Source: Bacillota bacterium (GTDB taxonomy: Bacteria > Bacillota > DULZ01). Taken from it: DNA of 64,000 nucleotides. The stretch lies in the NCBI GenBank assembly GCA_050951405.1, contig JBMNIZ010000013.1:101697-165696 (forward strand). The letters are read 5' to 3'. The stretch's first letter is position 1, and each line of letters opens with the position of its first letter. Positions 8,396-49,020 of this stretch are shown here, piece by piece. The translations under genes were made by a program, and so were the position numbers. Under the pieces are notes generated by a model. The model was not told the origin of the DNA. It did no database searches and saw nothing but the letters and a program-made list of their open reading frames with translations.

Positions 8396-8535
8396 GCATC
8401 TTTGTCCACACTACCCCATTCAACAGTACTTAAAGAATCACTTATTGTAAACTTCTGCATTTATTCACCTCCTTTCAAGGTGATAAAAAGGAGTATAAGA
8501 AAAAGAGCATAAGAAAAAGCGGAATAAATCCGCTT

Positions 8536-10235: not shown

Positions 10236-10293
10236 AAGCGGAATAAATCCGCTTTTCTTTTTCTTCATATTTTCCCGGCCATTTGCCTTTTCA

Positions 10294-10470
10294 TTAAACA
10301 GAACGTTTGGGGCATTTCTGGTCATTCATTATGTATTTTAAAGGCTTGCCCCCATATTCAGTACAAGTTATATAATCAATGGCATTCTTACAGTAAGCAC
10401 ACTGGGAAAATTCCATTCTCAAATCTCCTTTTTCCCATCTCCATTTATCTTTCTGTTTAGGTTTTACCAT
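10294..10470 (-). CDS. 58-aa Cys-rich phage-like protein inside the oversized spacer
   Basis: GGAGGGG RBS; MVKPKQKDKWRWEKGDLRMEFSQCAYCKNAIDYITCTEYGGKPLKYIMNDQKCPKRSV*; terminator follows. Confidence 0.65.
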   Translation of the reverse strand: MVKPKQKDKWRWEKGDLRMEFSQCAYCKNAIDYITCTEYGGKPLKYIMNDQKCPKRSV

Positions 10471-10544
10471 CGCAACCCCTCCTTTTTTTACTCCTTTCCT
10501 TTTTTCCATTTATTACTACTACTTACTATATATATTATACTATA

Positions 10545-25500: not shown

Positions 25501-26321
25501 CTCATAGGTAGGCTAAAAACGCGGTACTCCTTACCGACGCGGTGCCGGTGGAAGCCGTGTTTCAATTCCTCATAGGTAGGCTAAAAACAAAAATGAAGTT
25601 CTCTAAAGCTATTGTAGCGCTGGGTTTCAATTCCTCATAGGTAGGCTAAAAACACGTATCTTGCTGTGGCGGGTGGCATTCCCATGTTCTAGTTTCAATT
25701 CCTCATAGGTAGGCTAAAAACGTGTCGTGCTGGGCTGGCTGGGCCATGCACGGACCGTGTTTCAATTCCTCATAGGTAGGCTAAAAACCTGAGCTATGAG
25801 GATGTCTACGGTCAGTCCCAAACGTTTCAATTCCTCATAGGTAGGCTAAAAACCCGTTGGATGAGGTGGCCTACCATGCCGGGAACAAAGTTTCAATTCC
25901 TCATAGGTAGGCTAAAAACCAAACAGATGGAAGAACTTGTCGGACATACAGTCTTGTTTCAATTCCTCATAGGTAGGCTAAAAACGCTTACTGGGAGAAA
26001 TACGACCAGGAGCAAGAGCGGAGTTTCAATTCCTCATAGGTAGGCTAAAAACCAAAAGAGATTGTGAGAATATGGAGATTGGAGGGAGTTTCAATTCCTC
26101 ATAGGTAGGCTAAAAACGACATAGCTTGTTGGTATATGCCTTGCCGGACTCTTGTTTCAATTCCTCATAGGTAGGCTAAAAACACCCTAACGACACCGAT
26201 GCAGTAAACCTTTATGAGCGAGGTTTCAATTCCTCATAGGTAGGCTAAAAACGGTTGATGAGGAGCTTCAAATTGACTTTTGTCTCAAGGTGTTTCAATT
26301 CCTCATAGGTAGGCTAAAAAC
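10545..26321 (-). CRISPR. CRISPR array segment 2 (about 238 repeats, estimated)
   Basis: Continuous units of about 66 bp; crRNA-sense repeat GTTTTTAGCCTACCTATGAGGAATTGAAAC ends in the ATTGAAAC handle typical of I-B. Confidence 0.99.
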
Positions 26322-26466
26322 TGACTTCTACTGTTAATGGCCATGATAAAATCGACATAAATGGTCACGAAAAACCCGCAAAACCGGTCATTTAGAAAAG
26401 GAAAAAAGCTCGTTCCCTACAACATTTTCATTGGAACCAAAACATTAAAGAAGGGAACGAGCAAAA

Positions 26467-27948: not shown

Positions 27949-28733
27949 TTAGACAAATACCAACCGCCGATCGGAAAACCCTGGAACAGAATTTAAAAAG
28001 GTTAAGACTTCCCCATATTAGAAACATCCTTGACGATGTTAATGAATTGGCGCTGGAAGAAGAACCATCCTACCTGGATTTCTTAGCCTATGTTATTAAC
28101 AAGGAGGTGGAACATAGAGACAAGACCCAACAAGAAAAAAGAATGAAAAGAGCCTGCTTTCCCCAGATAAAGACTTTGGAAGAATTTGATTTTAGTTTCC
28201 AAAACAGCATCACCCAACAAAGCATCTATGATCTGGCAACCCTTCAATTTATCGAAGCCAAGGAGAACATCATCTTTCTGGGTCCACCGGGAGTAGGCAA
28301 GAGCCACCTGGCCATTGCCCTGGGAGTTAAGGCAGTGCTAAAAGGTTACCAAGTCCGTTTTTACACACTCACGGACCTCATTGCCGAGCTTTATGCAGCT
28401 TTAGCCGATAACAGCCTGAACAGAAAGATTAACAATATCTTAAAAAATGACCTTATCATTCTGGACGAACTGGGCTATGTGTCCATGGATGAAACCGCAT
28501 CAGACCATATTTTCCAGCTGGTCACCAAAGCTTACGAAAACCGTTCTTTGATCATTACCAGCAACCTGGATTTTGGAGAATGGGGCACTCTTTTTGTGAA
28601 CATGAGTACTGCTGCAGCTATCTTAGATCGCTTACTACACCATGCCCATGTGTTTAACCTTAGGGGGAACAGTTATCGGGTAAGAAACCGATTAATACAA
28701 CCAACAAATAAGATAGCGGCAACTACAGGCTAA
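27945..28733 (+). CDS. istB: IstB AAA+ ATPase
   Basis: GPPGVGKS Walker A, LIILDELGY Walker B, DRLLHH. Confidence 0.95.
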   Translation: MIRQIPTADRKTLEQNLKRLRLPHIRNILDDVNELALEEEPSYLDFLAYVINKEVEHRDKTQQEKRMKRACFPQIKTLEEFDFSFQNSITQQSIYDLATLQFIEAKENIIFLGPPGVGKSHLAIALGVKAVLKGYQVRFYTLTDLIAELYAALADNSLNRKINNILKNDLIILDELGYVSMDETASDHIFQLVTKAYENRSLIITSNLDFGEWGTLFVNMSTAAAILDRLLHHAHVFNLRGNSYRVRNRLIQPTNKIAATTG

Positions 28734-28755
28734 ATAAACCGGATTAAGCGAGTGC

Positions 28756-28805
28756 GAATTGCCTAGGAGGCGTTCCGCTACGCTCCACTGCCTCCTAGGC
28801 AATTC
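28756..28805. terminator. Strong hairpin after istB
   Basis: gaattgcctaggaggc...gcctcctaggcaattc, 16-bp perfect stem. Confidence 0.6.
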
Positions 28806-28948
28806 CTCTACCGTTATCGCAAGGATTAAATTCTGTATGACTGCTGGTTTTTCATGGCCAAAATTGCTGGTTTTTTAGTGACCAAAAATGCGGTTTTTCA
28901 AATGGCCATTGACATCTACCGGCTCTATAATGAATTGCGGGAGAAATA

Positions 28949-31900
28949 GTTTCAATTCCTCATAGGTAGGCTAAAAACGCCAGGGTTGGCTTTGAACAAG
29001 AAATCGTTGAGAAAGGTTTCAATTCCTCATAGGTAGGCTAAAAACGCAAATGGGATACAGCGTGATTATCAATGATGGCCGGGGTTTCAATTCCTCATAG
29101 GTAGGCTAAAAACAACAGTATGGCTAGAGCCGGACCGGTGCCAATGTGAGTTTCAATTCCTCATAGGTAGGCTAAAAACAGGAAGCTAGCATCCAAAAGG
29201 AGGTGAATACAGCGGTTTCAATTCCTCATAGGTAGGCTAAAAACAAAATCCAACTGCGGCTTTGATGTGGCCTTGGTTTAGTTTCAATTCCTCATAGGTA
29301 GGCTAAAAACGTTAGTGGGCATAAAGAGCTCACTTATATCTTTTCTGTTTCAATTCCTCATAGGTAGGCTAAAAACGCAAACTACCTTAAACCTGCTCAA
29401 ACCGTAAGGGTATTGTTTCAATTCCTCATAGGTAGGCTAAAAACAAGGAATGGGCAAGGCAAAGACTTTTGGTTGGTGAGTTTCAATTCCTCATAGGTAG
29501 GCTAAAAACTACCATGACGCTATAGTCATGTCAACACTTTTTAAGTTTCAATTCCTCATAGGTAGGCTAAAAACCTTTTCCAAGTGTGCCCTTTTGGCAG
29601 TTGAACTTGACGGGTTTCAATTCCTCATAGGTAGGCTAAAAACGCTGTCCTCCAAAAACAAGGAGGTAAACAAAATGGCGTTTCAATTCCTCATAGGTAG
29701 GCTAAAAACGCTGTTTGCAGGCTGTGGAAATACCCCGTTTCCTAGTTTCAATTCCTCATAGGTAGGCTAAAAACCCCAATTAGCCTTACAACTTGCACAT
29801 TGTTCCTTGTTTCAATTCCTCATAGGTAGGCTAAAAACCAAGAGTTAAAGAATTAACTCAGGAAAGAGATGCAAGTTTCAATTCCTCATAGGTAGGCTAA
29901 AAACCAATACTACGAAACAGAAGAAGTGGAATACATCATGTTTCAATTCCTCATAGGTAGGCTAAAAACTCTGCCTCTTCAAACCTTTTTCCCCCAGATT
30001 TTGAGGTTTCAATTCCTCATAGGTAGGCTAAAAACAAAGGCTACATCCAGCTGTGCATGAGGACTGGGGCCTAGTTTCAATTCCTCATAGGTAGGCTAAA
30101 AACTTTTCTTTTAGCTTGTATGCAATAAATTTAGCGGCGTTTCAATTCCTCATAGGTAGGCTAAAAACCTGCGGAATGGGGGCACCATCATCTGTCTCAT
30201 TAGAGTTTCAATTCCTCATAGGTAGGCTAAAAACATTCATCCAGCTGAAAAGCATCCGGAGTGGCGGCTAGGTTTCAATTCCTCATAGGTAGGCTAAAAA
30301 CGGCATCTTCTAAGGCTTGTACTCTTCCGCCAGAAAGTTTCAATTCCTCATAGGTAGGCTAAAAACTAAAAAATTCAAGACAAACTTGCCACTCCTGTGG
30401 AGGTTTCAATTCCTCATAGGTAGGCTAAAAACACAATTATCGCAGAAAGGTATGGCATGGTTGATACGTTTCAATTCCTCATAGGTAGGCTAAAAACAGC
30501 TCCGGTTACTGCCATGTAGTGCATGCATTGAACAGTTTCAATTCCTCATAGGTAGGCTAAAAACGAGATTTAACGTGGGAAGAATTCATTAGATGGTATG
30601 TGTTTCAATTCCTCATAGGTAGGCTAAAAACCCCAGTGATAGATTGATTACATCGACATCCTTCTGGAGTTTCAATTCCTCATAGGTAGGCTAAAAACGG
30701 AGCTTGCCAATCTGTCCAGTTCAGGGTTCCTGGCTAGTTTCAATTCCTCATAGGTAGGCTAAAAACATGCAAAGTCAATCTTACAATGCTGATACCGAAC
30801 GTAGTTTCAATTCCTCATAGGTAGGCTAAAAACACAGCAGGACATTTTGATTTTCGCAAAACAGCGAAGGTTTCAATTCCTCATAGGTAGGCTAAAAACT
30901 ATGGCGTTGCCACTAAAAGAATATTTGCAATTAAAAGTTTCAATTCCTCATAGGTAGGCTAAAAACAAAAAAAGGCACCCACCTGCCCAAAAATGCCAAA
31001 AAAAGTTTCAATTCCTCATAGGTAGGCTAAAAACTGCTTGATTCGGACGATCTAAACAGTTGGAAGGCGTGTTTCAATTCCTCATAGGTAGGCTAAAAAC
31101 CTATGAAGAAGACCGCTCATATGCTATACCTTTCCCGAGTTTCAATTCCTCATAGGTAGGCTAAAAACGCCAGGCCGACAACTACCAGGTGGAACTCTAT
31201 ACGACAAGTTTCAATTCCTCATAGGTAGGCTAAAAACCGCCGTTGGTGTTTGAAACGCATATTCGCCATCAAGTTTCAATTCCTCATAGGTAGGCTAAAA
31301 ACGGGCAGGGCCTCAGGCGTTGTTGAATTGATCAAGCTTTAGTTTCAATTCCTCATAGGTAGGCTAAAAACTAGTTGATTTCTTTACGAAGACTATCCCG
31401 GAAGCGAGTTTCAATTCCTCATAGGTAGGCTAAAAACTTCAAGGCGTTCTCCGACTTTGACACGATATCCGCTGAGTTTCAATTCCTCATAGGTAGGCTA
31501 AAAACGGATATACCATTGCGCATATAGGTCTGCTTCATTTCTGCGTTTCAATTCCTCATAGGTAGGCTAAAAACGAACATCACCGGCGATTAGAGAATCA
31601 ACTCTGCCGCAGTTTCAATTCCTCATAGGTAGGCTAAAAACAGTTTCTAGTCCCTTTTCCTGCTCTTCCAGTTCTGCGTTTCAATTCCTCATAGGTAGGC
31701 TAAAAACAAAATATAGCGGCCCGATTACGTCTCCGGGTATCACAGTTTCAATTCCTCATAGGTAGGCTAAAAACAGTTTCTGGCCGCACGTGGGGCAGGT
31801 GTCGCTTTGTTGTTTCAATTCCTCATAGGTAGGCTAAAAACCAGTCATCACGAATTGCTCGTTTAACTTCTTTTTCGTGTTTCAATTCCTCATAGGTAGG

Positions 31901-32577
31901 CTAAAAACCCATGAATCAACACATTCGCTGCATCTACCAAGGACGCGTTTCAATTCCTCATAGGTAGGCTAAAAACTGGCAGCCCGTGGGAGAGAGTAGT
32001 GGCAAAAACAGACAAGTTTCAATTCCTCATAGGTAGGCTAAAAACCATAATATCCGTTATATCCATTCTCCAATGTTTCAAGTTTCAATTCCTCATAGGT
32101 AGGCTAAAAACTCGGCGAAGAGGTTTTGTTTGAAATGATGGACGGCAGTTTCAATTCCTCATAGGTAGGCTAAAAACTTATATTCAGCGATGGCATGAAA
32201 GAGTAGGCAGCGAGTTTCAATTCCTCATAGGTAGGCTAAAAACTATGTGTTTGGCACTCTTTGTTTGTGGCTCTTCCGAAGTTTCAATTCCTCATAGGTA
32301 GGCTAAAAACCTTTATTGCTTTTTCAATTACACATTTTAATTCTTTGTTTCAATTCCTCATAGGTAGGCTAAAAACGAAGGGGTTGACAAGGGGACCGGT
32401 GGGAGATATAATCGTTTCAATTCCTCATAGGTAGGCTAAAAACCCGTGAGCAAGTCGCAGAGTTCATTGGCCTCCCGAGTTTCAATTCCTCATAGGTAGG
32501 CTAAAAACAAATAAAATGATTAAATGGGATGAATTACACTCAGATAGGTTTCAATTCCTCATAGGTAGGCTAAAAAC
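28949..32577 (-). CRISPR. CRISPR array segment 3 (about 55 repeats, leader-proximal)
   Basis: Same perfect repeat; ends at 32577 next to the leader. Confidence 0.99.
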
Positions 32578-32767: not shown

Positions 32768-33031
32768 TTAGATGATAATATCTTCTCCTCCTTTTTTCAC
32801 ACCAATAAGTTCCCGCTTAGAATATCTAGTTGTGCGAAGCTGATAAATAATAACCGAATCTTCCTCAACATTCATTGTCTGGATAAGTTCAGTTTTTAAT
32901 TTTTTCAAATTTGCTTCGCTGATCTCTCCCTCCAGTACAGAATTTTGCACCCAATTGAGATATTTTCTGGCTATTTTCAGGATCTTACCAACTCTTTTCT
33001 GATTTACATCGTACACTAAAATCACAAACAC
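32768..33031 (-). CDS. cas2: Cas2
   Basis: VILVYDV and WVQNSVLEG motifs, 87 aa. Confidence 0.97.
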   Translation of the reverse strand: MFVILVYDVNQKRVGKILKIARKYLNWVQNSVLEGEISEANLKKLKTELIQTMNVEEDSVIIYQLRTTRYSKRELIGVKKGGEDIII

Positions 33032-33046
33032 CGCAAATCCCTCTTG

Positions 33047-34048
33047 TTACCATTTGGCTATAAATGGTTCATAGAGTTCTTCTCCCATTAAATGCTTTTG
33101 AAGTTTATAGAGCTCAAGGCGAATTAAACGACGATATGATACTTCTCTGCCGATGTTCCGATGCTTGATTGTTGTCTTCAGACGCTTGTCTAATTCATCA
33201 ACAAATTTTTTTTTGCCACTTTCTTTCAAGAGAATACCTTCTGTATGTCTTTCAAATTCGGATTTGGTGATCATTTTTTTCCCGATTAAAGTAAAAATTA
33301 GCCTATCGACTAAAATAGGTTTAAAAACCTCTGCCACGTCCAGGTTTAAAGAAAACCGGCGAAAATTTGTGGCATGCAAGAAACCGATCCTGGGATCCAA
33401 GTGAGTTCTATAAATCTCGCTTAAAATAATTGTATAAATAATGCTGTTGCCAAAACTGATTAGACAATTTAGATAATTCTGCGGAGGCCTGCGAGTGCGC
33501 TGCTCAAATACAAAGTCTTCATTTTCAAGGATGTTGTCAAAAGCATTATAATAATAATTGCGAATATTTCCTTCGATAGCCATCAATTCATCGATTGCTT
33601 TACACTCAGGTAGTCCTTGCTCTAAATCCTCGATATTCTGCAGGGCGGCCCCGACATTCTTCCCTCTACTGTAGTAATAACGCAATACCCTTTTAATATT
33701 AGCCACTGCACCTTCAACAAATGCTTTTGCAATTTTAAATCTTTTTGTGTTGTCTAGATAGTGCTCAGCTTGACGTAAAATCATGTAACCAGAATTCAAA
33801 TGCTCCCGGGGATAGAAGGTGCCCATATAATAGCCGTAATAGTTAAAGTAATGTATCAATATTTCTTTCTGGGAAACAAATTCCAAAAGACTTTTATTAA
33901 TACTTACTTCCCCAAAAATGAATAAATCAGAAATATCCTCTACTGGCAGATATTTATTACCCTCTTTCATCTTAAAACGAAGAGTATTATCCTTTCTCTG
34001 CAAGTCGCCTTCAGAAAAGATATAAACTGCTTTTTTCATAATTGTCAA
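33047..34048 (-). CDS. cas1: Cas1 (type I-B)
   Basis: RKDNTL, IEGNIR, RRPPQN, NCLISFGNS, SLNLDVAEVFKP motifs. Confidence 0.97.
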   Translation of the reverse strand: MTIMKKAVYIFSEGDLQRKDNTLRFKMKEGNKYLPVEDISDLFIFGEVSINKSLLEFVSQKEILIHYFNYYGYYMGTFYPREHLNSGYMILRQAEHYLDNTKRFKIAKAFVEGAVANIKRVLRYYYSRGKNVGAALQNIEDLEQGLPECKAIDELMAIEGNIRNYYYNAFDNILENEDFVFEQRTRRPPQNYLNCLISFGNSIIYTIILSEIYRTHLDPRIGFLHATNFRRFSLNLDVAEVFKPILVDRLIFTLIGKKMITKSEFERHTEGILLKESGKKKFVDELDKRLKTTIKHRNIGREVSYRRLIRLELYKLQKHLMGEELYEPFIAKW

Positions 34049-34057
34049 CCTTCTTTC

Positions 34058-34564
34058 TTATGCCCAGCAAAATTCTCCGTAGGCGCAATTGCGACAATAC
34101 CTCCCTTTAACTGGAGGAGGTGGCAAATCAAGATATGCAATCCTCAGAATATCTTTCTTAGCCCTTTCAACTTCTTCGATCAGTTGCTGCGTCAAATGGA
34201 CTGGCACTCTTTTTTTTTCTTTGGGAAACAACAACTCCCCTGAAACCTCAACTCCCATACCGGCCAATTCGGTCAGATATAACGCCAACTGCATTTTCGC
34301 ACTGTGTTCAGCTTTAGATGACTTTTTCACCTCTCCCACCACCAGCTGACCATCTTGTTTTTTTATAAGATCAAATTTTAAGTGACCAATTGTCACTTCC
34401 TTTTTCTCGCGGGCATAAGCCCTTTCATGTAAAAAACGTCCTATATCTATATCTGGGTTTCCCTGATCGGCATCTATTCGCCGGGCCATTAACCAAACCT
34501 GTCGGTGGCAAATGTAGTAATACCACATAAGAGTACCGGTAACTCTGATTTCACTAGTTTCCAC
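34058..34564 (-). CDS. cas4: Cas4
   Basis: YYICHRQVWL, EVKKS, C-terminal CRNCAYGEFC Fe-S cysteines. Confidence 0.96.
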   Translation of the reverse strand: METSEIRVTGTLMWYYYICHRQVWLMARRIDADQGNPDIDIGRFLHERAYAREKKEVTIGHLKFDLIKKQDGQLVVGEVKKSSKAEHSAKMQLALYLTELAGMGVEVSGELLFPKEKKRVPVHLTQQLIEEVERAKKDILRIAYLDLPPPPVKGRYCRNCAYGEFCWA

Positions 34565-35465: not shown

Positions 35466-35485
35466 TATCCATCCACCCCCTAAAC

Positions 35486-41071: not shown

Positions 41072-43651
41072 TTATGAATCAAAAAACAAACTTCCACTCT
41101 CATCTATAAACCCCGTTTCTTCATCATAATATTGAGCTAATTGTTCTGGAGGTACCCAAAGCAAATTAGAATTTGCTCCGCCTCTTATACTAAAATCTAT
41201 AGGAAAATTCTTTTTTAACTTGTTCCATCTAATCTGAACTATATAATCGTTCATTTTAGCAGCAATCAAATTAAGGATCATTTTCCTCTGGTATATGCTA
41301 AGCCTCTTTCCAAAGTGTCTTGCTATATTAGGGCCTATAATTCCTATTAATTCGGAATTGAAATCATTTGTGTAATTTATTAGCCCTTGGTAGACATCCG
41401 CTAATTTAGTAGCGAAGGAATCTTTCTCTACATAAACATCGCCAATCTCTGAGTTCTTTATCAGTTTAAATGTCTGCAAGGCTTCAAAATCAAGTTTTAT
41501 AATACCTTGCTCCCAAATTTTACGGGATTCGTCCGATATATCCCTACCAAAGGCCAAATTGTAGTATTTATCCGCTAGCTCACCATATTCTTGTTCCAAA
41601 ATTTCTCTTTTTTTCATTAACAGCTTCATAGTAGATTGTCTATGCATTAGATTATAGACATAGTGGTTATCATCTTCTAAACGAATAATATAAATTGGTA
41701 GATATTCACCTTTTTTACCTTCGCGGTTTACTCTTCCAGCAGTCTGAATAAGCGAATCTAATGGTGCAAAATCCCTAAAAGCCATATCAAAGTCCAGATC
41801 TACTCCCGCTTCTATAGTCTGAGTAGACACCAATATTACTTGCTTATTGTTTTTTAGCAGCCTGTCCACTTGCTCTATAACTTTCATCCTATCAATAGGT
41901 ATAATATTCGTTGAAAGATACTTTACTGGGATATTATATCGTCTATTTTTAATCTCTTTGCATATTCTTTTATAAATATCAATACTGCGCTTGATTGTAT
42001 TAACTACTATTAAAGCCGATTTCTTTTTATTCCACTTATCAAAAAATAAATCTATAAATTGATCCACATCCAATTTATTATCCAGTAGGGGAATAAACTT
42101 GGTTCTTTTTAATCGTTTAAAATATTTAGGATAATCCGGTAATAAGGGCCTTACGTTGCATTTTTCTTTTTTTACCTGTGCCCACAATAAGAGCTTATCT
42201 CCAAACTCTAATAGCCTAGGTTGGGTGGCAGTCATCAGAATAATTCTTGTTCCATAGTATTGGCTAATCATCTGCAACACAGCACCTATTAAAGGCATAT
42301 AATCCTCCGGTATGGCCTGGGCCTCATCCAAAATGACAATGCTGCCCGCAAGTTTATTTATCTTTTTCAATAATCGGTTTTGACCTGTAAATATTGACTG
42401 AAATAATTGCACAAAAGTGGTCAGGATTACATCTCCTTCCCAAGATTCGATTTCCATATAAATTTTGTCTACCGGAGTTATATCATTATTTTTCTCTTGT
42501 TGTACAACCCCAAATTCACCGTGCGCAGTTAAAAAATCAGATAGCCGATGATGAACTATCATCTTCGCCTTTTTGCCAAAAACATTTTCATATTCTTTTT
42601 TATTTTGTTCGATTATATTTATAAAAGGAATTGCCGTAATAATTCTTGGGACATATTTCTCAACTTGGAATATTCTTTCTTGAAGTCGTAGGGCACATTG
42701 TAATGATGACAAAGTTTTTCCTATTCCAGTAGGTGCTGTAAGGGTAAAAAGTCTAGTGGATTTTATCTCATCATCACTCAAGCTTTCAATAACACTTAAC
42801 ATGGTATTTCTGGCTTGTTCTCTTTGGTCGTCCAATTCGTTGTTTTTTGAGACATCATAATTACCTTTCTTCTGGGCTAGGTATTTTGTAACATTATCCG
42901 GAGAAACAGCAAATACTTCTCTTGGGGCAATATATGATGAATCGAGCTTGTCATTATCTATTAATACGGAGAATAAATACAAAAGGATAAAAAACCATTT
43001 AGGGTGGTTAATTCTGCCATTCTCAAAGCGAGTTGGGATGTATTGAAAATCCTTATTCTTTTTCAAGCAGTCTATGCACAAATATTGCTTAAATTCTTCT
43101 AAGGTTAACTTGTCTCTAAAATCTAGATCTTCCAAAATTTCATTTGCCTTAGCGTTTAAATGTATCTCAAGTGCTTCTAATTTGTTCCAAATATCATATC
43201 TAAAGGAAAATAGATCTTTAAGATTTAATGAAGTATGATGCTGACGGACACAAAGATAGGCCAGAAAAGACAAGATATCTTTTTTCTCCTTATCAAGTGT
43301 CAATTTAGCAGATAGAATTAAAAATACAAAACAAGCAGATATATGAGCATGATTTTTTAATGGGCTATCTTTGTTCTCTTTTAAATATTTTTGAAAGTAG
43401 TCACTATACTTACCTAAATCATGGAAATGACCCAACAAGTAGCTGATCTTTTTGATAGTGGAGTCGCTTATCTCATCAAATTCTACTACTGGAGGCATGT
43501 TTTTTGTACTGAGCAGCGCAACTGATTTCAGGTGCTCATTTAATAATTGACTCTCGCCCTTTTCTTTATCGTAATGAGCAAGGTATTGCAAGATTACATT
43601 ACCCCTTTTTAAAGGCATTGGAGCCATGCTTATGCAAAACTCCAATGCCAT
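41072..43651 (-). CDS. cas3: Cas3 HD nuclease/helicase (true start may be TTG 43591)
   Basis: HDLGK, APTGIGKT, DEAQ, TAT, QTIEAGVD, QTAGRVNR motifs. Confidence 0.97.
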   Translation of the reverse strand: MALEFCISMAPMPLKRGNVILQYLAHYDKEKGESQLLNEHLKSVALLSTKNMPPVVEFDEISDSTIKKISYLLGHFHDLGKYSDYFQKYLKENKDSPLKNHAHISACFVFLILSAKLTLDKEKKDILSFLAYLCVRQHHTSLNLKDLFSFRYDIWNKLEALEIHLNAKANEILEDLDFRDKLTLEEFKQYLCIDCLKKNKDFQYIPTRFENGRINHPKWFFILLYLFSVLIDNDKLDSSYIAPREVFAVSPDNVTKYLAQKKGNYDVSKNNELDDQREQARNTMLSVIESLSDDEIKSTRLFTLTAPTGIGKTLSSLQCALRLQERIFQVEKYVPRIITAIPFINIIEQNKKEYENVFGKKAKMIVHHRLSDFLTAHGEFGVVQQEKNNDITPVDKIYMEIESWEGDVILTTFVQLFQSIFTGQNRLLKKINKLAGSIVILDEAQAIPEDYMPLIGAVLQMISQYYGTRIILMTATQPRLLEFGDKLLLWAQVKKEKCNVRPLLPDYPKYFKRLKRTKFIPLLDNKLDVDQFIDLFFDKWNKKKSALIVVNTIKRSIDIYKRICKEIKNRRYNIPVKYLSTNIIPIDRMKVIEQVDRLLKNNKQVILVSTQTIEAGVDLDFDMAFRDFAPLDSLIQTAGRVNREGKKGEYLPIYIIRLEDDNHYVYNLMHRQSTMKLLMKKREILEQEYGELADKYYNLAFGRDISDESRKIWEQGIIKLDFEALQTFKLIKNSEIGDVYVEKDSFATKLADVYQGLINYTNDFNSELIGIIGPNIARHFGKRLSIYQRKMILNLIAAKMNDYIVQIRWNKLKKNFPIDFSIRGGANSNLLWVPPEQLAQYYDEETGFIDESGSLFFDS

Positions 43652-43654
43652 ATT

Positions 43655-44419
43655 TTACTCCATCCATACAATGTTTTCCTTGTTATCTAACTTGGTAAAA
43701 GTATTTACCACTGCTGGGATAGAGTTCCCCTCAATGTTTGCGATTACTTCTTTTAAACCCCTACTGGTAATACATCTATTTGCATCAAACTCTAAAGGCA
43801 GCTCTTCTTTAATAATCTTATAGCCACTATTAGTATTAATTTTGATTATTTTTAGTTCTTTTATATTATCTACAGGAATTACCGAGGAAATCATTTGTTC
43901 AGAATCATTGCATATTTCTTGGACTTCTGAGATTCCATCATATTGAATCCATCCGAGATTAAATGCACTACCTAGGGATATACAAGCACCTAAACTTGTA
44001 TAGAGTGCACTGTTATAATTAAGAAGCCCTCCAAGGGCATCCATAATTTTTTCGTCCCTATGATGCATCCAAATCTTATAATCCACATAACCTGTTCTTA
44101 TATCTTGAGGAATAACTAACTCTATTGGAGTTTGACTGTGATATTCTTGGGAGCCATTTAGATCATTAAGTGTTTTTATCATCAAATAATTCATCTTCTG
44201 CATGTTCTTTTTGATAGGTTTACACGATGCTATGGCTATTTTACATTTATCTAAAGAAAAATCTTCATAATAAGTGTCTCTTTTATAGCCTAAAAGACCC
44301 GCTACGATCCCTACTATTGTAGTTCTGGGAGGGATAAAATAAGATAGTGCCGAAGAATTGGAGTAAAATTTCCTAAAATGCGCCATCTTGCCTCTTAAAT
44401 AAAACGAAAGCACTTTCAT
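43655..44419 (-). CDS. cas5: Cas5 (I-B)
   Basis: GKMAHFRK and PPRTTIVGIVAGLLG RAMP N-terminus; Gly loop LGSAFNLG. Confidence 0.93.
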   Translation of the reverse strand: MKVLSFYLRGKMAHFRKFYSNSSALSYFIPPRTTIVGIVAGLLGYKRDTYYEDFSLDKCKIAIASCKPIKKNMQKMNYLMIKTLNDLNGSQEYHSQTPIELVIPQDIRTGYVDYKIWMHHRDEKIMDALGGLLNYNSALYTSLGACISLGSAFNLGWIQYDGISEVQEICNDSEQMISSVIPVDNIKELKIIKINTNSGYKIIKEELPLEFDANRCITSRGLKEVIANIEGNSIPAVVNTFTKLDNKENIVWME

Positions 44420-44431
44420 ACACGATGCCTC

Positions 44432-45487
44432 CTATTTTATCGGAGTCCACAAATCCACCTCTTGGAATTCGGGAAAGTTAATCAGGTTATCTAACTTGGT
44501 AAAAGGATGTATCCAGCCTACGACTTTTTCTATATAACCTTTTTTCCCTATATCATCTATAGCTCGTTTTAATCGGGAAAAATCAATCACTATATCACTA
44601 ATCGACCTTATTATTTCATTATATTTAACATCAAGAAATCTCCTCAAATCTCCTAAATATCCGTCAAAATCAGGCTTGTATATAATTTCAATATAAAAAA
44701 GCGGTTCCTGCCCTTGTTTGCTGTCAGTTTTATTCGACATTAACCCCTGAACCAAAGACTTCCGCAATAATTCTCTATCCATTTCAGTCATGCCAGTCAG
44801 TTTTGCGCTGTTTTTATTAATAGTCCCATAGTGAGCTATCAAAGCATAATACAATTTATACTTTTTCCCGAAAGTTGAGCTATCATCACTCATGATCGAT
44901 GTAATGGTACTGGATTTTACCATCCCCACAGGATGAAGAGAATAGCCCCAACTAATTTGGACAGGACCAGTATATGTCCTACTAACGCCCTCAACGGCCA
45001 TAGCACTGCCAAAAAGCCTGATATCAATTAAAGACCTTTTGATTATTTCGGTAAGAAACGTATTATTGAACTTTATAAAATCTTTATTTTTTTTCATCGT
45101 AGGGATAGAGCTTTTTTCGTTATAAATCTTTTTATAATCCTTGGCATCGCCAAACAAGTTGTACCATTGTTCCTTTAAATCCGGATTATCTGTAAAAATT
45201 TCATCTATTTTTTCCTGGTTCTCTAGTTGTTCATTTACAATATGCTCAAACATCTTATTCATAGGAATTTTCTGGTCAGCTAATGTGTCGACAAATATAG
45301 GAAAACCTTTCCTCTTTAAAAAATCCCTCACATCTCTTTTTCTACGGGCGTCACTTACCAGCACAGTTGAGGTTTCATAATCCATTCTCGGCTTATTTTC
45401 CTGATCCGGATCGCCATTTGGGTTTGATAAAGTAGCCTCAAATGCAAACAAAAAATCACTATTTTGATTGATAATCATATTTTTCAT
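44432..45487 (-). CDS. cas7: Cas7 (Csh2-type)
   Basis: NPNGDPDQENKPR, DIRLFG, TGPVQ motifs. Confidence 0.94.
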   Translation of the reverse strand: MKNMIINQNSDFLFAFEATLSNPNGDPDQENKPRMDYETSTVLVSDARRKRDVRDFLKRKGFPIFVDTLADQKIPMNKMFEHIVNEQLENQEKIDEIFTDNPDLKEQWYNLFGDAKDYKKIYNEKSSIPTMKKNKDFIKFNNTFLTEIIKRSLIDIRLFGSAMAVEGVSRTYTGPVQISWGYSLHPVGMVKSSTITSIMSDDSSTFGKKYKLYYALIAHYGTINKNSAKLTGMTEMDRELLRKSLVQGLMSNKTDSKQGQEPLFYIEIIYKPDFDGYLGDLRRFLDVKYNEIIRSISDIVIDFSRLKRAIDDIGKKGYIEKVVGWIHPFTKLDNLINFPEFQEVDLWTPIK

Positions 45488-45912
45488 CCTTTCTATCCTT
45501 TCTTATTTTTGACCTTTTTTGAAATAGGCATATTCTGAGATATATTGCCATTCTACTGTAAAACTCGATTTTACTATTAAAATATATTAACGAGCAGCAG
45601 TATCATCAATATTAATCGGTTCCAACCTAAAAACATTCCCCATAATTTTTCATAAGCTTTTGTGATTATAGAGAAGAATATCACTCTTTAGCACAAAGAG
45701 CTAAACCTAAGTCATAAAAAGATATAGATAAACAAATTTTAATTCATTTTCTTATAGCTAAAATAAAGGGTTCTTAAAGAATAAATAACTTTAATATTTG
45801 GTTTTCTTTGGTGTAGTTACCTGAAAGATTGTCAATTTGGCATAGAAACTTTTTCTCTGTACTACATTACCTTAATTTAGCATAGCTTCGTTTATGCAAA
45901 AGACCTTTTGTT

Positions 45913-46383
45913 TTATTCATTATTTTTTTCTTCCTTGGTTTCACCAATAAGGTTTGGATCAGCTCCTTTCACATTATAGGAATACCCAGCCATAATCATA
46001 AAAACATTAGCTTGCTCGGTTAAGACCCAATTAGATTTAGATAATCCATAATACTGATGAAATTTTTTCATGATATATTCGCTATACGTAAATATCTGTT
46101 CTTTATCATTCCCTTCAAGCAAACCGTATTGTATTAATTTTTCTTGAACATCATTATAAAGGCTTTCAATTTCTTTTTTGCTCATGCCTTGAAATTGAAT
46201 CTTTTTTAAAATTGGCTTTGTGGCATGCCCTTTCTTTACTTGGGCCACTGCCACCAGATTAATCAGAATCCCAAGATAAAACAGCATTCTTGATACATCA
46301 TCAAAACCGAGTTTTTCCAAATAAGCCTCAATTCCATTAACGCGGGAAATCACACCCTTTTGTTGTTTCTCAGACAAACCCAT
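45913..46383 (-). CDS. cas11: Probable internally translated Cas11 small subunit, 156 aa
   Basis: In-frame ATG 46383 preceded by AAGGTGG; C-terminal helical domain with FYLGILI...Q motif. Confidence 0.55.
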   Translation of the reverse strand: MGLSEKQQKGVISRVNGIEAYLEKLGFDDVSRMLFYLGILINLVAVAQVKKGHATKPILKKIQFQGMSKKEIESLYNDVQEKLIQYGLLEGNDKEQIFTYSEYIMKKFHQYYGLSKSNWVLTEQANVFMIMAGYSYNVKGADPNLIGETKEEKNNE

Positions 46384-47967
46384 TAATTCATCCACCTTTC
46401 CATTGGATTTAAAAACCTCCTTATCTAAAACTCCCAAATCCTGACATGCTTTAAATAGTACTAAATACCCAAATATTAAGCGCTTAATAAAAAAGTCTTC
46501 GTTTCCATTAATAAAACGGGTTAGTCCTAGGTTAAAATAGTTATCTATTTCATTTTTGCCTAACTGTTTTAAGCCTTTCTCAAGGCCATCTGCAGCATAA
46601 TCAAACAACACCTTATGACTTATTTTCTCGCCCAACATTATAGCTTTGTAAAAAGATAACACCCGTCCTATGTCAAGTTGCACATTATTTTTATTGGTTT
46701 TTACTGGAATGAGGCGGTAAATGGTGCCAATATTAATATTGTTAATGTGAGGTTTTAAAGCTCTTGAATAATTGGATAATAATCTCATGATTTTTTCAAA
46801 CCTTAAAACAGGAACATCTTCTATCGTTTCCAATATTGTCATTGAAGTACCATCTGTTCTATAAAAAAGGAAATTAACAGCATATTCATCAATATTACTC
46901 TCCAACTTTTCACTCTCAATAGTGCGGATCCAGTTTTCAGCATCACTTTCTGAAAAAGCTAAATCTATATTAGTTTTTAATGTATTAAAGTATTTGTAGT
47001 CAAAATCCCTAAGGACTCCTTCAGGTAATAAAAATACATCTTCCCCAGCAATTTTAGATCTGAACTGTTTTGTTATGTGCTTTTCTCCTAACCGCAAATT
47101 TTTATAGCACTCATTACAAATCGAATACACATTGTCGTAGGCTTTTTTAACAAAATAAGGAGCCGAATTCACTGTGGTAATGGCAAAGATTTTATTAATT
47201 CCCGATCTATCAAATTTTGTAGAATACTCGCTTGAAACATCAGCCCTGATTTCTTTGCATATATGGCAAACCCTTGCATCGCCCCCAGTGCTCTCGCTTT
47301 TCCCTAAGTTATTTTCCCGCTTTACAAGCTCTAAATAATCTGGATGAATTGAAAGAATTATTTTTCTCCCATCTTTAAGCACTACTTTCGGCACTACAAG
47401 AACAAATCTGTTTTTTCTATTCGTGTCTCCAATAAAAAGCCTGATAAAATCCTCAGGATTACACTTTTTCTCACCTACATGGATATTGCCCTTTTCATCT
47501 ACAAATATCCTATCTGTCACATCTTTTATTTTCGAAAGCCTACTAAGTTCTAATTGCCCTAATCCTTTTTTACCAGCTAGTTTAATGTAGCCTTTATCTG
47601 CAAGGTGCTTGAGCAATGTCCCTAATTCCCCATTAGCCATATCATTTTTATCCAATAACATGTGCAAATCACTAAGAGTACTTCTTAGCAAATATTTAAG
47701 TGAAGCTGTATCTCGGGACAGATAATACTGGGTTCCAGCACTGGCGTTGTTACCGAAATAATTGTAAGTATAAACAGAATCCTCAGTCAACTTATCTCCT
47801 AACTCAAAGTAAATACTATCTTCTTGCAAGTCCAATACCAAAAAAACTATAAAAGCCTCTTCGCCCTCTTTAACTTTTTTTAAACCTTTTACCAAAGAAG
47901 CGAATTCATCATCATTTTTGAAAGGAACAGTCCTGCCAATGAAAGCAGTCAACTTAGGTAAGCTCAT
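45913..47967 (-). CDS. cas8b: Cas8b (Csh1-type) large subunit
   Basis: 684 aa, CHIC...CNEC zinc cysteines, position between cas6 and cas7. Confidence 0.88.
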   Translation of the reverse strand: MSLPKLTAFIGRTVPFKNDDEFASLVKGLKKVKEGEEAFIVFLVLDLQEDSIYFELGDKLTEDSVYTYNYFGNNASAGTQYYLSRDTASLKYLLRSTLSDLHMLLDKNDMANGELGTLLKHLADKGYIKLAGKKGLGQLELSRLSKIKDVTDRIFVDEKGNIHVGEKKCNPEDFIRLFIGDTNRKNRFVLVVPKVVLKDGRKIILSIHPDYLELVKRENNLGKSESTGGDARVCHICKEIRADVSSEYSTKFDRSGINKIFAITTVNSAPYFVKKAYDNVYSICNECYKNLRLGEKHITKQFRSKIAGEDVFLLPEGVLRDFDYKYFNTLKTNIDLAFSESDAENWIRTIESEKLESNIDEYAVNFLFYRTDGTSMTILETIEDVPVLRFEKIMRLLSNYSRALKPHINNINIGTIYRLIPVKTNKNNVQLDIGRVLSFYKAIMLGEKISHKVLFDYAADGLEKGLKQLGKNEIDNYFNLGLTRFINGNEDFFIKRLIFGYLVLFKACQDLGVLDKEVFKSNGKVDELMGLSEKQQKGVISRVNGIEAYLEKLGFDDVSRMLFYLGILINLVAVAQVKKGHATKPILKKIQFQGMSKKEIESLYNDVQEKLIQYGLLEGNDKEQIFTYSEYIMKKFHQYYGLSKSNWVLTEQANVFMIMAGYSYNVKGADPNLIGETKEEKNNE

Positions 47968-47984
47968 TTGGAAACACCCCCTTC

Positions 47985-48004
47985 TTAATGTGATTTTAAT
48001 ATGT
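47985..48004 (+). promoter_or_regulatory. PAM (TTA) plus target site of the mini-array guide in the cas8b 5' region
   Basis: TTA-ATGTGATTTTAATATGT matches guide positions 1-5, 7-11, 13-15 and 17. Confidence 0.75.
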
Positions 48005-48018
48005 ACACCCTCACCTAA

Positions 48019-48047
48019 AATATAACAAATACAAACCTTTTTGTCAA
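48019..48047 (-). promoter_or_regulatory. sigA promoter of the cas8b operon
   Basis: TTGACA-N17-TATATT with extended TGn. Confidence 0.8.
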
Positions 48048-48091
48048 TACTTTTATTCTGTATTATTATTGCGTATAATAAGAACGACCCC

Positions 48092-48175
48092 GATTATTCG
48101 ATACCTATTAGGATTTGAAATATGTGTTTTTATTATATCGGGGTCCATTATAGATTACCTACAAGGGTTACTAAT
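48092..48175 (+). ncRNA. crRNA-like regulatory RNA (CreR/CreA-type mini-array)
   Basis: Pseudo-repeat 48092..48121 (21/30 to repeat), 24-nt guide 48122..48145, pseudo-repeat 48146..48175 (17/30); candidate promoter TTGTCA-N17-TATTAT at 48041..48069. Confidence 0.75.
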
Positions 48176-48231
48176 TAAAGATAGCCTTAGAGCAGTTTAT
48201 TCTTGCTATCTACAATATACTGAACGTACCA

Positions 48232-49020
48232 TCAAACTCGGCCTACACATTTTATTATTTGGTTTTCGTCACTATCACTTGCTTTTTCCTTTATTATCTC
48301 TACACATCCAAATCCTTGGGAATTCTTAGAGCCAATTCCTGCATCCACAGCCATTTGCAAAAGCTCTCGTGGACCTTTTAATGCCAACTTTCCGCTATAG
48401 CCTTTGATCACTGTATCTTTATACTTAACCAAACGCATTTGGCCTCTGCCAATTTTTCTTACTGTTAGTCTCCCAGAAGGCGCTTCCGTTCTGTGAAACG
48501 CTCGGTACTTTTTACGCAGATTCTTTTCTAAGAGTAGCTCATGGTCAGTCTCACCGGGTTGAAAGTAGCAGGTATACTTCCTGCCATCCGGTCGGAAAAA
48601 GGTACTGTAAACTACAACCGGTGATAGACACTTGAGCACAACTTGTTCTTTCTGAATGATATACTGTTGTACTGCCATTTTTTCAACTTTGACTTCTTGT
48701 TTGCCTAGCCGCAATTTGCTTTTAATTAAAATCCCGTTGGCTATAGACTGGCAAAACTCATCGAACGGTGAGGAAATAACCAAAGTAATCTTATCTTTAA
48801 ATCTGATCAGGCCATTACTCCTATCGATTTGAAAAGGACCTAAAAGTCGAGAAAAAGTAAAAAGCTTAAAAACTCGACTGCCAGTCTGGTACCCCTTTTC
48901 ATGCAAGAAAGTAGCCAAATCGGGGTCTATAGAATCATAGATCATGGCTTGTACAATATGATTGTACTGTAATGGTACTTCCATACTGCCATCGGTACTT
49001 AGCGTTAAGTAAATATGCAT
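48232..49020 (-). CDS. cas6: Cas6
   Basis: FKLFTFSRL, LSPVVVYST, C-terminal GIGSKNSQGFG loop. Confidence 0.96.
   Translation of the reverse strand: MHIYLTLSTDGSMEVPLQYNHIVQAMIYDSIDPDLATFLHEKGYQTGSRVFKLFTFSRLLGPFQIDRSNGLIRFKDKITLVISSPFDEFCQSIANGILIKSKLRLGKQEVKVEKMAVQQYIIQKEQVVLKCLSPVVVYSTFFRPDGRKYTCYFQPGETDHELLLEKNLRKKYRAFHRTEAPSGRLTVRKIGRGQMRLVKYKDTVIKGYSGKLALKGPRELLQMAVDAGIGSKNSQGFGCVEIIKEKASDSDENQIIKCVGRV

What the first reader, a model, noticed from the sequence alone, without database searches (positions are those of the whole stretch)
47985..48175. Hidden crRNA-like mini-array that aims Cascade at its own promoter region (CreR/CreA-type autorepression)
Seen: the plus strand between cas6 and cas8b reads GATTATTCGATACCTATTAGGATTTGAAAT (21/30 to the repeat), ATGTGTTTTTATTATATCGGGGTC (24 nt), CATTATAGATTACCTACAAGGGTTACTAAT (17/30). 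The guide matches 47988..48004 at positions 1-5, 7-11, 13-15 and 17. The target follows TTA and lies between the cas8b promoter (48019..48047) and its RBS. A divergent promoter for the RNA overlaps the cas8b -35. Established: Cascade leaves every sixth guide base unpaired, partial duplexes allow binding without Cas3 cleavage, and creTA/CreR loci lie between cas6 and cas8 in I-B systems. Inference: this is an unannotated RNA-guided feedback loop on the effector operon. The class is known; this instance is probably not.
Basis: partly seen in the sequence, partly recalled or inferred. Interest (0 to 1): 0.9.

Follow-up and report, generated by a model that had tools for sequence, protein, structure and literature searches.

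The report
Self-repressing guide RNA in CRISPR locus
A degenerate two-repeat mini-CRISPR beside the cas8b gene of a type I-B system encodes a short guide that matches the cas8b promoter region, so the CRISPR complex most likely switches off its own production; this kind of circuit is already known, and this is a new, well-supported example.

Summary
On the + strand between cas6 (48232-49020, -) and cas8b (45913-47967, -) lie psiR1 (48092-48121, 21/30 to the repeat), a 24-nt guide (48122-48145) and psiR2 (48146-48175, 17/30). The guide matches 47988-48004 at positions 1-5, 7-11, 13-15 and 17. That site follows TTA and sits between a TTGACA-17-TATATT promoter and the cas8b ribosome-binding site.

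It is not chance. The site is the best match to the guide in the 2.38-Mb genome, and 0 of 20,000 shuffles equal it. Four related cas8b loci carry a homologous mini-array. Guide and target changed together at positions 1, 3, 5 and 14, while positions 6, 12 and 18 drift. All five targets, the window's included, follow TTA. One real spacer of this array has a 39/39 protospacer flanked by TTA.

Published work on related I-B systems shows TTA as the best PAM and repression without cleavage below 26 nt of complementarity. My verdict is a CreR-type Cascade autorepressor: a new member of a known kind. No RNA data could be obtained. A 9-bp stem pairing the leader with guide positions 16-24 remains unexplained.

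The parts
48232..49020 (-). cas6 (262 aa)
   Evidence: TIGR01877 cas_cas6, E 5.1e-35, above cutoff
48179..48211 (.). Hairpin between psiR2 and the cas6 stop codon. It could end the CreR transcript, the cas6 transcript, or both
   Evidence: MFE structure; inverted repeat I3. It did not pass the terminator scan (0 found). L004, L005 and L044 have a stronger hairpin followed by a T-rich tail at the same place
48146..48175 (+). psiR2, the degenerate distal repeat. It keeps the 3'-handle part (14 of the first 22 positions) and has lost the 5'-handle part (3 of the last 8)
   Evidence: 17/30 to the repeat; core TACCTA..AGG.TT is invariant in 5 homologs
48122..48145 (+). psiS, the 24-nt guide. Positions 1-15 carry the match to the target; positions 16-24 form the 3' arm of the stem
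48092..48121 (+). psiR1, the proximal repeat-like sequence. Its last 8 nt, TTTGAAAT, match 6 of 8 of the canonical handle ATTGAAAC. The expected mature 5' end is at 48114
   Evidence: 21/30, unique in the window; core invariant in homologs. The cleavage position is inferred from recalled knowledge of I-B Cas6 processing
48086..48094 (+). 5' arm (GACCCCGAT) of a 9-bp perfect stem. Its partner ATCGGGGTC is at 48137-48145, which is guide positions 16-24
   Evidence: Inverted repeat I6. Folds: z -2.5 on the + strand and -3.5 on the - strand. About 3 of 5000 shuffles give a stem as long
48074..48079 (+). TATAAT, the likely -10 box of the CreR promoter, 6 nt upstream of the 5' stem arm
   Evidence: Invariant TATAATA in all 5 homologous mini-arrays. 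The scan tool instead calls TTGTCA-17-TATTAT at 48041-48069. The true start site is unknown
48019..48047 (-). cas8b promoter, TTGACA-17-TATATT, with TG before the -10
   Evidence: 11 of 12 consensus matches
47988..48004 (+). Protospacer-like target in the first ~25 nt of the predicted cas8b transcript. The + strand is identical to the guide, so the guide would pair with the - (coding) strand
47985..47987 (+). TTA, in the PAM position (5' of the protospacer)
   Evidence: TTA flanks the targets in 7 of 9 related loci with a guide-target match. It also flanks a 39/39 protospacer of a real spacer of this array. TTA is the best PAM of a related I-B system (PMC10551041)
47975..47981 (-). cas8b ribosome-binding site, GGGGGTG
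   Evidence: read; lies 7 nt upstream of the ATG at 47967
41072..47967 (-). Regulated operon: cas8b (45913-47967), cas7 (44432-45487), cas5 (43655-44419), cas3 (41072-43651)
   Evidence: NCBIfam hits. That they form a single operon is inferred from the short gaps between them
4883..32577 (-). CRISPR array whose crRNAs would compete with CreR: 303 repeats, 299 spacers of 34-41 nt, and three insertions of 2.1-2.9 kb
32768..34564 (-). Adaptation genes: cas2 (32768-33031), cas1 (33047-34048), cas4 (34058-34564)
   Evidence: Pfam hits

Best explanation
This is a CreR-type (Cas-regulating RNA) gene: a degenerate mini-CRISPR that makes the type I-B Cascade repress its own operon.

Proposed steps:
1. 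A promoter with the conserved -10 TATAAT (48074-48079) transcribes the + strand through psiR1, guide and psiR2. This is inferred.
2. Cas6 cuts psiR1 8 nt before its end, near 48114. That leaves the handle UUUGAAAU followed by the 24-nt guide. This is inferred.
3. Cas8b, Cas7 and Cas5 assemble on this RNA. This is inferred.
4. The complex recognises TTA at 47985-47987. It pairs guide positions 1-15 with the - strand at 47988-48002. The mismatches at positions 6 and 12 fall on bases that Cascade does not pair. The match and the PAM are shown; binding is inferred.
5. Complementarity stops after about 15-17 nt, well below the ~26 nt needed for Cas3 cleavage in a related I-B system. The complex therefore stays as a roadblock over +1 to about +25 of the cas8b transcript, between the promoter and the ribosome-binding site. 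This lowers transcription of cas8b-cas7-cas5-cas3. This is inferred from published experiments on related systems.

The result is negative feedback. When free Cascade is scarce, because it is titrated by the ~300 crRNAs of the array or inactivated by an anti-CRISPR, repression would relax and more Cas protein would be made.
For: Anatomy and statistics:
- psiR1 is the only 21/30 repeat match in the window outside the array and one of 2 at 21/30 or more in the genome.
- The promoter site is the best non-self guide match among 405 seed sites in the genome.
- 0 of 20,000 shuffles reach it.
- The target lies between an 11/12 consensus promoter and the ribosome-binding site.

Comparative evidence:
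- 53 distinct cas8b upstream regions were scanned (59 with duplicates). They contain 16 repeat-like positions.
- 9 of the 16 are followed by a guide with 9 or more Cascade-style matches nearby, and 8 of the 16 reach 13 or more.
- The background is 838 of 44,878 other positions at 9 or more, and 35 of 44,878 at 13 or more.
- The 9 flanks are TTA (7), TTG (1) and TCA (1).

Five homologous mini-arrays (window, L002, L044, L004, L005):
- They share an invariant TATAAT, the psiR1 core, the guide seed and the psiR2 core.
- Guide and target both changed, and still match in 5 of 5, at positions 1, 3, 5 and 14.
- Positions 6, 12 and 18 match in only 2, 1 and 0 of 5.
- L004 mismatches exactly at 6, 12 and 18.

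PAM:
- The spacer at window 19935-19973 has a 39/39 protospacer with a 5' TTA in a related genome.

Literature:
- In Parageobacillus thermoglucosidasius I-B, TTA is the best PAM, and crRNAs with under 26 nt of complementarity repress without cleaving (PMC10551041, passages).
- The Clostridium thermocellum I-B PAM is TTN/TNA (PMC6926293, passages).
- CreA/CreR autorepression of Pcas8 is shown experimentally in Haloarcula hispanica I-B and other subtypes (10.1101/2023.03.10.532045, section 8 and passages).

Locus state:
- The effector genes are full length with the expected domains.
Against:
- psiR2 alone is at chance level: 17/30, with 33 such positions in the window.
- The contiguous match is only 13 paired positions plus one.
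- Only 9 of 53 related upstream regions scored, so the element is sporadic in this Cas8b clade.
- No Cas8b homolog was found in the 5 other genomes of the same family, so there is no close-relative check.
- The co-varying loci are few and partly related: L004 and L005 share most of their guide. The number of independent compensatory events is about four.
- The locus shows wear. There are IS21-type genes between cas3 and cas4 and three insertions in the array. A perfect self-targeting spacer also exists. The system may therefore be weakened or inactive.
- The promoter of the RNA is ambiguous: the tool-called TATTAT versus the conserved TATAAT.
Confidence: 0.8

Rival explanations
1. It is a decaying, non-functional remnant of a CRISPR repeat-spacer-repeat unit left between cas6 and cas8b, and the match to the promoter region is incidental.
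For: Both repeats are degenerate (21/30 and 17/30). An nhmmer profile of the mini-arrays also hits ordinary repeat-spacer-repeat units of the array, which shows common descent. The locus carries several IS insertions. Shmakov et al. judge mini-arrays near type III loci to be degraded repeats (PMC10120712, section 22).
Against: The guide's best genome-wide match lies 134 nt away with a TTA flank, and 0 of 20,000 shuffles equal it. The element is conserved, with compensatory guide-target changes and an invariant -10 box, in loci whose Cas8b is only 48-64% identical. A remnant would not keep the 5'-handle part in psiR1 and the 3'-handle part in psiR2.
Confidence: 0.06
2. It is the antitoxin half (CreA) of a CreTA addiction module. 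Cascade plus this RNA would repress a small toxin gene, so that loss of Cascade kills or arrests the cell.
For: CreTA modules sit between cas6 and cas8 in haloarchaeal I-B loci, and CreA has the same psiR1-psiS-psiR2 build (10.1101/2023.03.10.532045; PMC10120712 introduction passage).
Against: The repressed promoter runs straight into the cas8b ribosome-binding site and ATG. Only 20 nt separate the target start from the ATG, leaving no room for a toxin transcript. The intergenic ORFs of 20 aa or more that do not run into the flanking genes are 25 aa (48041-48118, +) and 31 aa (48053-48148, -). From my reading of the L002 sequence, the 31-aa ORF has no ATG at the equivalent place there.
Confidence: 0.04
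3. The RNA acts without Cascade, as an ordinary antisense small RNA. The guide is complementary to the cas8b 5' UTR next to the ribosome-binding site and would block translation or trigger decay.
For: The guide has the + strand sequence and the cas8b mRNA the - strand sequence, so 14 of the first 17 guide bases could pair with the mRNA leader.
Against: An RNA-RNA duplex gives no reason for mismatches to fall at positions 6, 12 and 18, or for a conserved TTA/TTG/TCA flank. In L010 the mini-array is on the cas8b strand and the matched site is on that same strand. That guide therefore has the sense of the mRNA and cannot pair with it, yet the guide-target-PAM pattern is the same. The repeat-like flanks would also have no role.
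Confidence: 0.04
4. The main functional element is the 9-bp GC-rich inverted repeat (48086-48094 / 48137-48145). It would act on the - strand as an RNA hairpin that terminates or processes cas6-to-cas8b read-through, or as a protein operator. On this reading the repeat likeness is secondary.
For: The stem is perfect and rare by chance: about 3 of 5000 shuffles. It folds at least as well on the - strand (z -3.5, 0 of 200 shuffles) as on the + strand (z -2.5).
Against: A 42-nt loop with no T-run is not a terminator (0 found). The stem is not reliably conserved: 6 bp in L002 (p 0.06), 7 bp in L004 (p 0.04), and not significant in L005, L044 and L019. The guide-target-PAM pattern, by contrast, is conserved. 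This reading is compatible with the CreR reading rather than a replacement for it.
Confidence: 0.05

Closest known systems
CreA/CreR of Haloarcula hispanica type I-B and other subtypes (Liu et al., bioRxiv 10.1101/2023.03.10.532045; section 8 and passages read)
   Same: A degenerate mini-CRISPR (psiR1-psiS-psiR2) in a cas intergenic region. psiR1 keeps the 5'-handle nucleotides and psiR2 the 3'-handle part. The guide is partially complementary to a PAM-flanked site at or next to the promoter of the effector genes. The position between cas6 and cas8 and the target Pcas8 are as in H. hispanica. No toxin partner is present, which is what defines CreR as opposed to CreA.
   Different: The host is bacterial (its Cas8b relatives are from Bacillota), not haloarchaeal. 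The PAM is TTA. The promoter type is sigma-70. The target lies just downstream of the -10 box, over the transcript start. A 9-bp stem pairs the leader with guide positions 16-24; my term search for 'stem' and 'hairpin' in that paper found no such feature described. Nothing has been tested experimentally here.
Regulatory mini-arrays of Shmakov et al. (PMC10120712; section 22 and passages read)
   Same: A two-repeat mini-array with the better repeat next to the seed. The spacer is 20-60 bp with a partial match of 10 bp or more. The target has a canonical PAM. Mismatches at positions 6 and 12 are tolerated. That paper reports mini-arrays in about 19% of bacterial I-B loci.
   Different: The I-B cases described in the text lie upstream of cas6 and target the cas6 promoter (for example Clostridium perfringens). 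Here the array lies downstream of cas6 and targets the cas8b promoter.
Truncated-crRNA repression by the Parageobacillus thermoglucosidasius type I-B system (PMC10551041; passages read)
   Same: It is a bacterial type I-B system. Geobacillus loci L014, L016 and L017, whose Cas8b is 41% identical to the window's, came up; whether the P. thermoglucosidasius system itself belongs to this Cas8b family was not tested here. TTA is the best PAM, with TCA, TTG, CTA and TTT weaker. Guides of 11-25 nt repress transcription with Cas3 present.
   Different: Those guides were engineered and aimed at reporter or metabolic genes. Here a natural guide with about 15 nt of complementarity is aimed at the system's own promoter.
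Other self-regulating CRISPR RNAs: long-form tracrRNA (tracr-L) of type II-A and scaRNA of Francisella (both mentioned in PMC10120712)
   Same: A CRISPR-derived RNA with partial complementarity turns the effector into a transcriptional repressor rather than a nuclease.
   Different: Those are class 2, single-protein effectors with a different RNA architecture.

Membership tests
CreR (Cas-regulating RNA, degenerate mini-CRISPR) | Two repeat-like sequences flanking a short spacer-like sequence, inside a cas locus and outside the CRISPR array | tested here: met
   psiR1 21/30, psiR2 17/30, 24-nt psiS, in the cas6-cas8b intergenic region
CreR (Cas-regulating RNA, degenerate mini-CRISPR) | psiR1 conserves the 8 nt that become the 5' handle; psiR2 conserves the 3'-handle part instead | tested here: met
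   Last 8 nt: psiR1 6/8, psiR2 3/8. First 22 nt: psiR1 15/22, psiR2 14/22 (counted from the alignment printed). The rule is as stated in 10.1101/2023.03.10.532045, section 8
CreR (Cas-regulating RNA, degenerate mini-CRISPR) | The seed-proximal part of psiS is partially complementary to a site in or next to the promoter of the effector cas genes | tested here: met
   Positions 1-5, 7-11, 13-15 and 17 match 47988-48004, downstream of the -10 box of Pcas8b; 0 of 20,000 shuffles
CreR (Cas-regulating RNA, degenerate mini-CRISPR) | The target is flanked by the PAM of the cognate system | tested here: met
   TTA at 47985-47987. A real spacer of this array has a 39/39 protospacer with a 5' TTA. This rests on one clean protospacer only; a second spacer matches the same contig imperfectly in a low-complexity stretch
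CreR (Cas-regulating RNA, degenerate mini-CRISPR) | No coupled toxin gene (this separates CreR from CreA/CreTA) | tested here: met
   20 nt between the target and the cas8b ATG. The small intergenic ORFs are 25 and 31 aa; by my reading the 31-aa ORF is not conserved in L002
CreR (Cas-regulating RNA, degenerate mini-CRISPR) | The RNA is expressed, Cas6-processed and loaded into Cascade, and it represses the cas promoter in a guide-dependent way | not testable with these tools
CreTA toxin-antitoxin module | A toxin gene (creT) whose promoter is the target of the CreA guide | tested here: not met
   The targeted promoter drives cas8b itself
Canonical CRISPR array | Near-identical repeats, spacers of the array's usual length, and a leader that allows acquisition | tested here: not met
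   Repeats are 21/30 and 17/30, against 299 of 303 perfect repeats in the array. The spacer is 24 nt against 34-41 nt. Orientation is opposite to the array

The most novel reading that the evidence does not exclude
The 9-bp GC-rich stem that pairs the first bases of the primary transcript (48086-48094) with guide positions 16-24 (48137-48145) is a built-in safety device, not an accident. By holding the 3' half of the guide in a duplex, it would limit Cas7 loading or R-loop extension to the first ~15 nt. That would make a short Cascade able to bind the promoter but never able to license Cas3. Alternatively it would gate Cas6 processing or pre-CreR stability. Such a structural way of enforcing 'bind but do not cut' is not among the CreR/CreA features I saw in the passages I read.
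Probability: 0.12. Interest if true: 0.6.

Novelty: new member of a known kind. Interest (0 to 1): 0.38.

Why it matters
This is a clean bacterial type I-B example of RNA-guided Cas autorepression, with comparative support: the guide and its promoter target have co-evolved while every sixth base drifts. That pattern is an evolutionary footprint of Cascade's pairing geometry.

The host carries an unusually large array of about 300 spacers. It is therefore a natural case for the published idea that CreR circuits sense crRNA load.

In practice, the element should be annotated in such loci. Its TTA PAM and ~15-nt guide also give a ready design rule for CRISPR interference with this Cas8b clade.

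It does not open a new category. The mechanism, its prevalence in I-B loci and the repress-versus-cut length rule are all in print.

Tried and rejected
Orthologs by DNA. A search of the intergenic region in 60 related genomes found only the window itself. A single-protein Cas8b scan of genome contigs also found nothing. It worked only after I built a 41-sequence alignment.

Close relatives. No Cas8b was found in the 5 other genomes of the family.

Phage or plasmid copies of the mini-array. The only phage hit was an AT-rich match at E 0.02, and there was no plasmid hit. A scan of viral contigs with a handle-plus-seed pattern gave 104 matches. None has a repeat-like sequence upstream: the best is 16/30, of which 7 positions are imposed by the pattern.

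PAM from spacers. The array gave no match against the phage collection. Against its own genome it gave one perfect self-target with an AAT flank. Searching the order (6 genomes) gave one clean protospacer with TTA. The second half of the array gave only IS matches.

Rfam. Nothing near a gathering score.

Conservation of the leader/guide stem. It is significant only in the window (p about 0.0006), marginal in L002 (0.06) and L004 (0.04), and not significant in L005, L044 and L019. I therefore do not claim it is conserved.

nhmmer with the 5-sequence profile found no further full-length homologs among 221 stored loci and the genome. It hit only repeat-spacer-repeat units of arrays.

In print. 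A full-text search for the 24-nt guide found 0 papers. They may list related loci.

Full report
- cas6 is at 48232-49020, cas8b at 45913-47967, cas7 at 44432-45487, cas5 at 43655-44419 and cas3 at 41072-43651.
- IS21-type genes follow between 34711 and 40802.
- cas4, cas1 and cas2 lie at 32768-34564.
- The array has 303 repeats, from 32577 down to 4883. It has 299 spacers of 34-41 nt and three insertions of 2.1-2.9 kb.
- The functional repeat strand is the - strand, GTTTTTAGCCTACCTATGAGGAATTGAAAC. A spacer-protospacer match with a 5' PAM later confirmed this orientation.

**Observation.**
- On the + strand: psiR1 at 48092-48121 (21/30), a 24-nt guide at 48122-48145, and psiR2 at 48146-48175 (17/30).
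- psiR1 keeps 6 of the 8 handle nucleotides. psiR2 keeps 3 of 8 there, but 14 of the first 22.
- The guide equals the + strand at 47988-48004 at positions 1-5, 7-11, 13-15 and 17.
- TTA precedes the site.
- The - strand promoter TTGACA-17-TATATT (48047..48019; 11 of 12, with TG) lies just upstream of the site in the cas8b direction.
- The ribosome-binding site GGGGGTG (47981..47975) and the ATG (47967) lie just downstream.

**Is it chance?** No.
- In the window, psiR1 is the only 21/30 match, and nothing else falls between 20 and 26.
- In the 2.38-Mb genome there are two non-array matches of 21/30 or more.
- Among 405 genome sites with the guide's seed, the promoter site is the best non-self match. 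It has 13 paired non-sixth positions; the next three have 11 and lack T-rich flanks.
- Of 480 pseudo-guides cut from the real intergenic region, only the guide and its reciprocal reach 13.
- 0 of 20,000 dinucleotide shuffles of 47968-48091 reach 13, with or without a PAM filter.

**Relatives.**
- DNA searches found nothing, and a single-protein scan found nothing.
- Cas8b has many homologs at 36-64% identity.
- An alignment of 41 of them retrieved 38 genome loci and 55 metagenome loci.
- I took the 58 loci whose match starts at residue 1, plus the window. That gives 59 upstream regions, 53 of them distinct.
- I asked whether a repeat-like 30-mer (17/30 or more, with 6/8 or more in the handle) is followed by a guide that finds a Cascade-style match nearby.
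- There are 16 such positions. Nine have a match of 9 or more, and eight of 13 or more.
- The background is 838 and 35 of 44,878 other positions.
- The nine flanks are TTA (7), TTG (1) and TCA (1).

**The window's own sub-family.** L002, L044, L004 and L005 are homologous to the window's element along its length.
- They share an invariant TATAATA box, the psiR1 core, the seed ATGTG.TTTT and the psiR2 core.
- In these five, guide and target both vary yet stay matched in 5 of 5 at positions 1, 3, 5 and 14.
- Positions 6, 12 and 18 match in 2, 1 and 0 of 5.
- L004 mismatches exactly at 6, 12 and 18.
- L004 and L005 are close to each other, so I count about four independent compensatory events.

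**Other arrangements.** L019 and L051 carry a second type, with the target 116-133 nt from the ATG. L010 (Clostridium luticellarii) and L054-56 carry mini-arrays on the cas8b strand.

**cas6 context.** By tblastn, cas6 lies upstream in 7 of the 10 loci examined. It was not found in the upstream DNA held for L002 (840 nt), L005 (2264 nt) or L010 (200 nt). The element therefore travels with the cas8b promoter rather than with cas6.

**PAM.**
- The array gave no hit in the phage collection.
- A search of the six genomes of the order found that the spacer at 19935-19973 has a 39/39 protospacer on a 1.6-kb contig of a related genome, preceded by TTA.
- A second spacer hits the same contig imperfectly, in a low-complexity stretch.
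- Published experiments agree. TTA is the best PAM of the Parageobacillus thermoglucosidasius I-B system, with TCA, TTG, CTA and TTT weaker (PMC10551041, passages).
- TTN/TNA serve in Clostridium thermocellum (PMC6926293, passages).

**Mechanism.**
- The same Parageobacillus paper shows that guides with fewer than 26 nt of complementarity repress transcription without cleavage while Cas3 is present.
- The CreR preprint shows CreA/CreR-guided repression of Pcas8 or PcasA. It also shows relief by competing crRNAs and by anti-CRISPRs (abstract, section 8 and passages).
- Here the pairing ends after about 15-17 nt and covers roughly +1 to +25 of the cas8b transcript.
- The best reading is therefore a Cascade roadblock and negative feedback on cas8b-cas7-cas5-cas3.
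- That Cascade leaves every sixth base unpaired is recalled knowledge. It is also stated for I-F1 in PMC10120712, section 22.
- The 8-nt handle left by Cas6 in I-B systems is recalled.

**Rivals.**
- *Dead remnant.* This does not explain the conservation, the covariation or the PAM.
- *CreTA module.* This fails because the repressed promoter feeds cas8b directly and there is no room for a toxin.
- *Cascade-free antisense RNA.* This would not put its mismatches at multiples of six or keep a PAM. It also cannot work in L010, where the guide has the sense of the mRNA.

**The unexplained part.**
- A perfect 9-bp GC-rich inverted repeat, GACCCCGAT (48086-48094) and ATCGGGGTC (48137-48145), encloses psiR1 and guide positions 1-15.
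- Its 5' arm begins 6 nt after the conserved TATAAT, so probably at the transcript start.
- Its 3' arm is exactly the part of the guide that does not match the target.
- About 3 of 5000 shuffles give so long a stem.
- Similar but different stems occur in L002 (6 bp, p 0.06) and L004 (7 bp, p 0.04). L005, L044 and L019 are not significant.
- The stem folds equally well on the - strand.
- I report it as unexplained, not as a conserved feature.

**Limits.**
- Supplementary files were not read.
- The guide is absent from the searchable full texts, but related loci may be listed in supplements.

**Verdict.** The kind is already known and reported as common in I-B loci: about 19% of bacterial I-B loci carry mini-arrays (PMC10120712). 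I rate it a new member of a known kind, of moderate interest.

Noticed in passing
window 4883-32577 (- strand): A very large CRISPR array: 303 repeats (299 of them perfect) and 299 spacers of 34-41 nt. It is interrupted three times, by gaps of 2851, 2149 and 2627 nt after the repeats starting at 4883, 8366 and 26292.
   Followed up: partly
window ~26322-28948; also G000 contigs C1, C2, C4, C6, C10, C12, C14, C16: The ~2.6-kb insertion in the array is a repeated element with 13 further near-full-length copies (97-100% identical) elsewhere in the genome. The ~1.7-kb core of another array insertion is also multi-copy. The genome looks IS-rich.
   Followed up: partly
window spacer starting 25789; G000:C9:49363-49397 (L095 5364-5398): A self-targeting spacer with a 35/35 match inside a 1148-aa chromosomal gene carrying VWA, SpaA and tip-pilin-like domains. 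Its 5' flank is AAT, not TTA, which may explain why it is tolerated.
   Followed up: partly
window 19935-19973; L203 (G002:C243) 85-123: A spacer with a perfect 39/39 protospacer and a 5' TTA on a 1.6-kb contig of a genome of the same family. A second spacer (start 12912) hits the same contig imperfectly. The contig is probably a fragment of a mobile element that infects this family.
   Followed up: partly
window 34711-40802: IS21-family transposase and IstB helper genes, some of them partial and on both strands, sit between cas3 and cas4. They separate the interference genes from the adaptation genes.
   Followed up: no
window 49901-51834 (- strand): A heavy-metal P-type ATPase is split into two adjacent ORFs, of 303 aa (N-terminal part) and 332 aa (C-terminal part). 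It is probably a frameshifted or interrupted gene.
   Followed up: no
L010 1-200 (Clostridium luticellarii); L054-L056: Mini-arrays on the same strand as cas8b. L010 has repeats of 24/30 and 23/30 and a guide matching a TTA-flanked site next to the cas8b ribosome-binding site (11 contiguous positions plus 13-16, mismatch at 12). In L054-56 the flank is TCA. This is a second architecture of the same circuit.
   Followed up: partly
window 48086-48094 and 48137-48145: A perfect 9-bp GC-rich inverted repeat pairs the presumed 5' end of the CreR transcript with guide positions 16-24. Its role is unknown and its conservation elsewhere is only marginal.
   Followed up: partly
G000:C1:14707-14736 (+): The only other non-array site in the genome with 21/30 or more identity to the repeat (22/30). 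It may be chance or another orphan repeat.
   Followed up: no
window 48126-48132 (guide positions 5-11): Guide positions 5-11 (GTTTTTA) equal the first 7 nt of the CRISPR repeat. Guides of the second type (L019, L051) also contain TGTTTTTA. This could be coincidence or a trace of how these guides arose.
   Followed up: no
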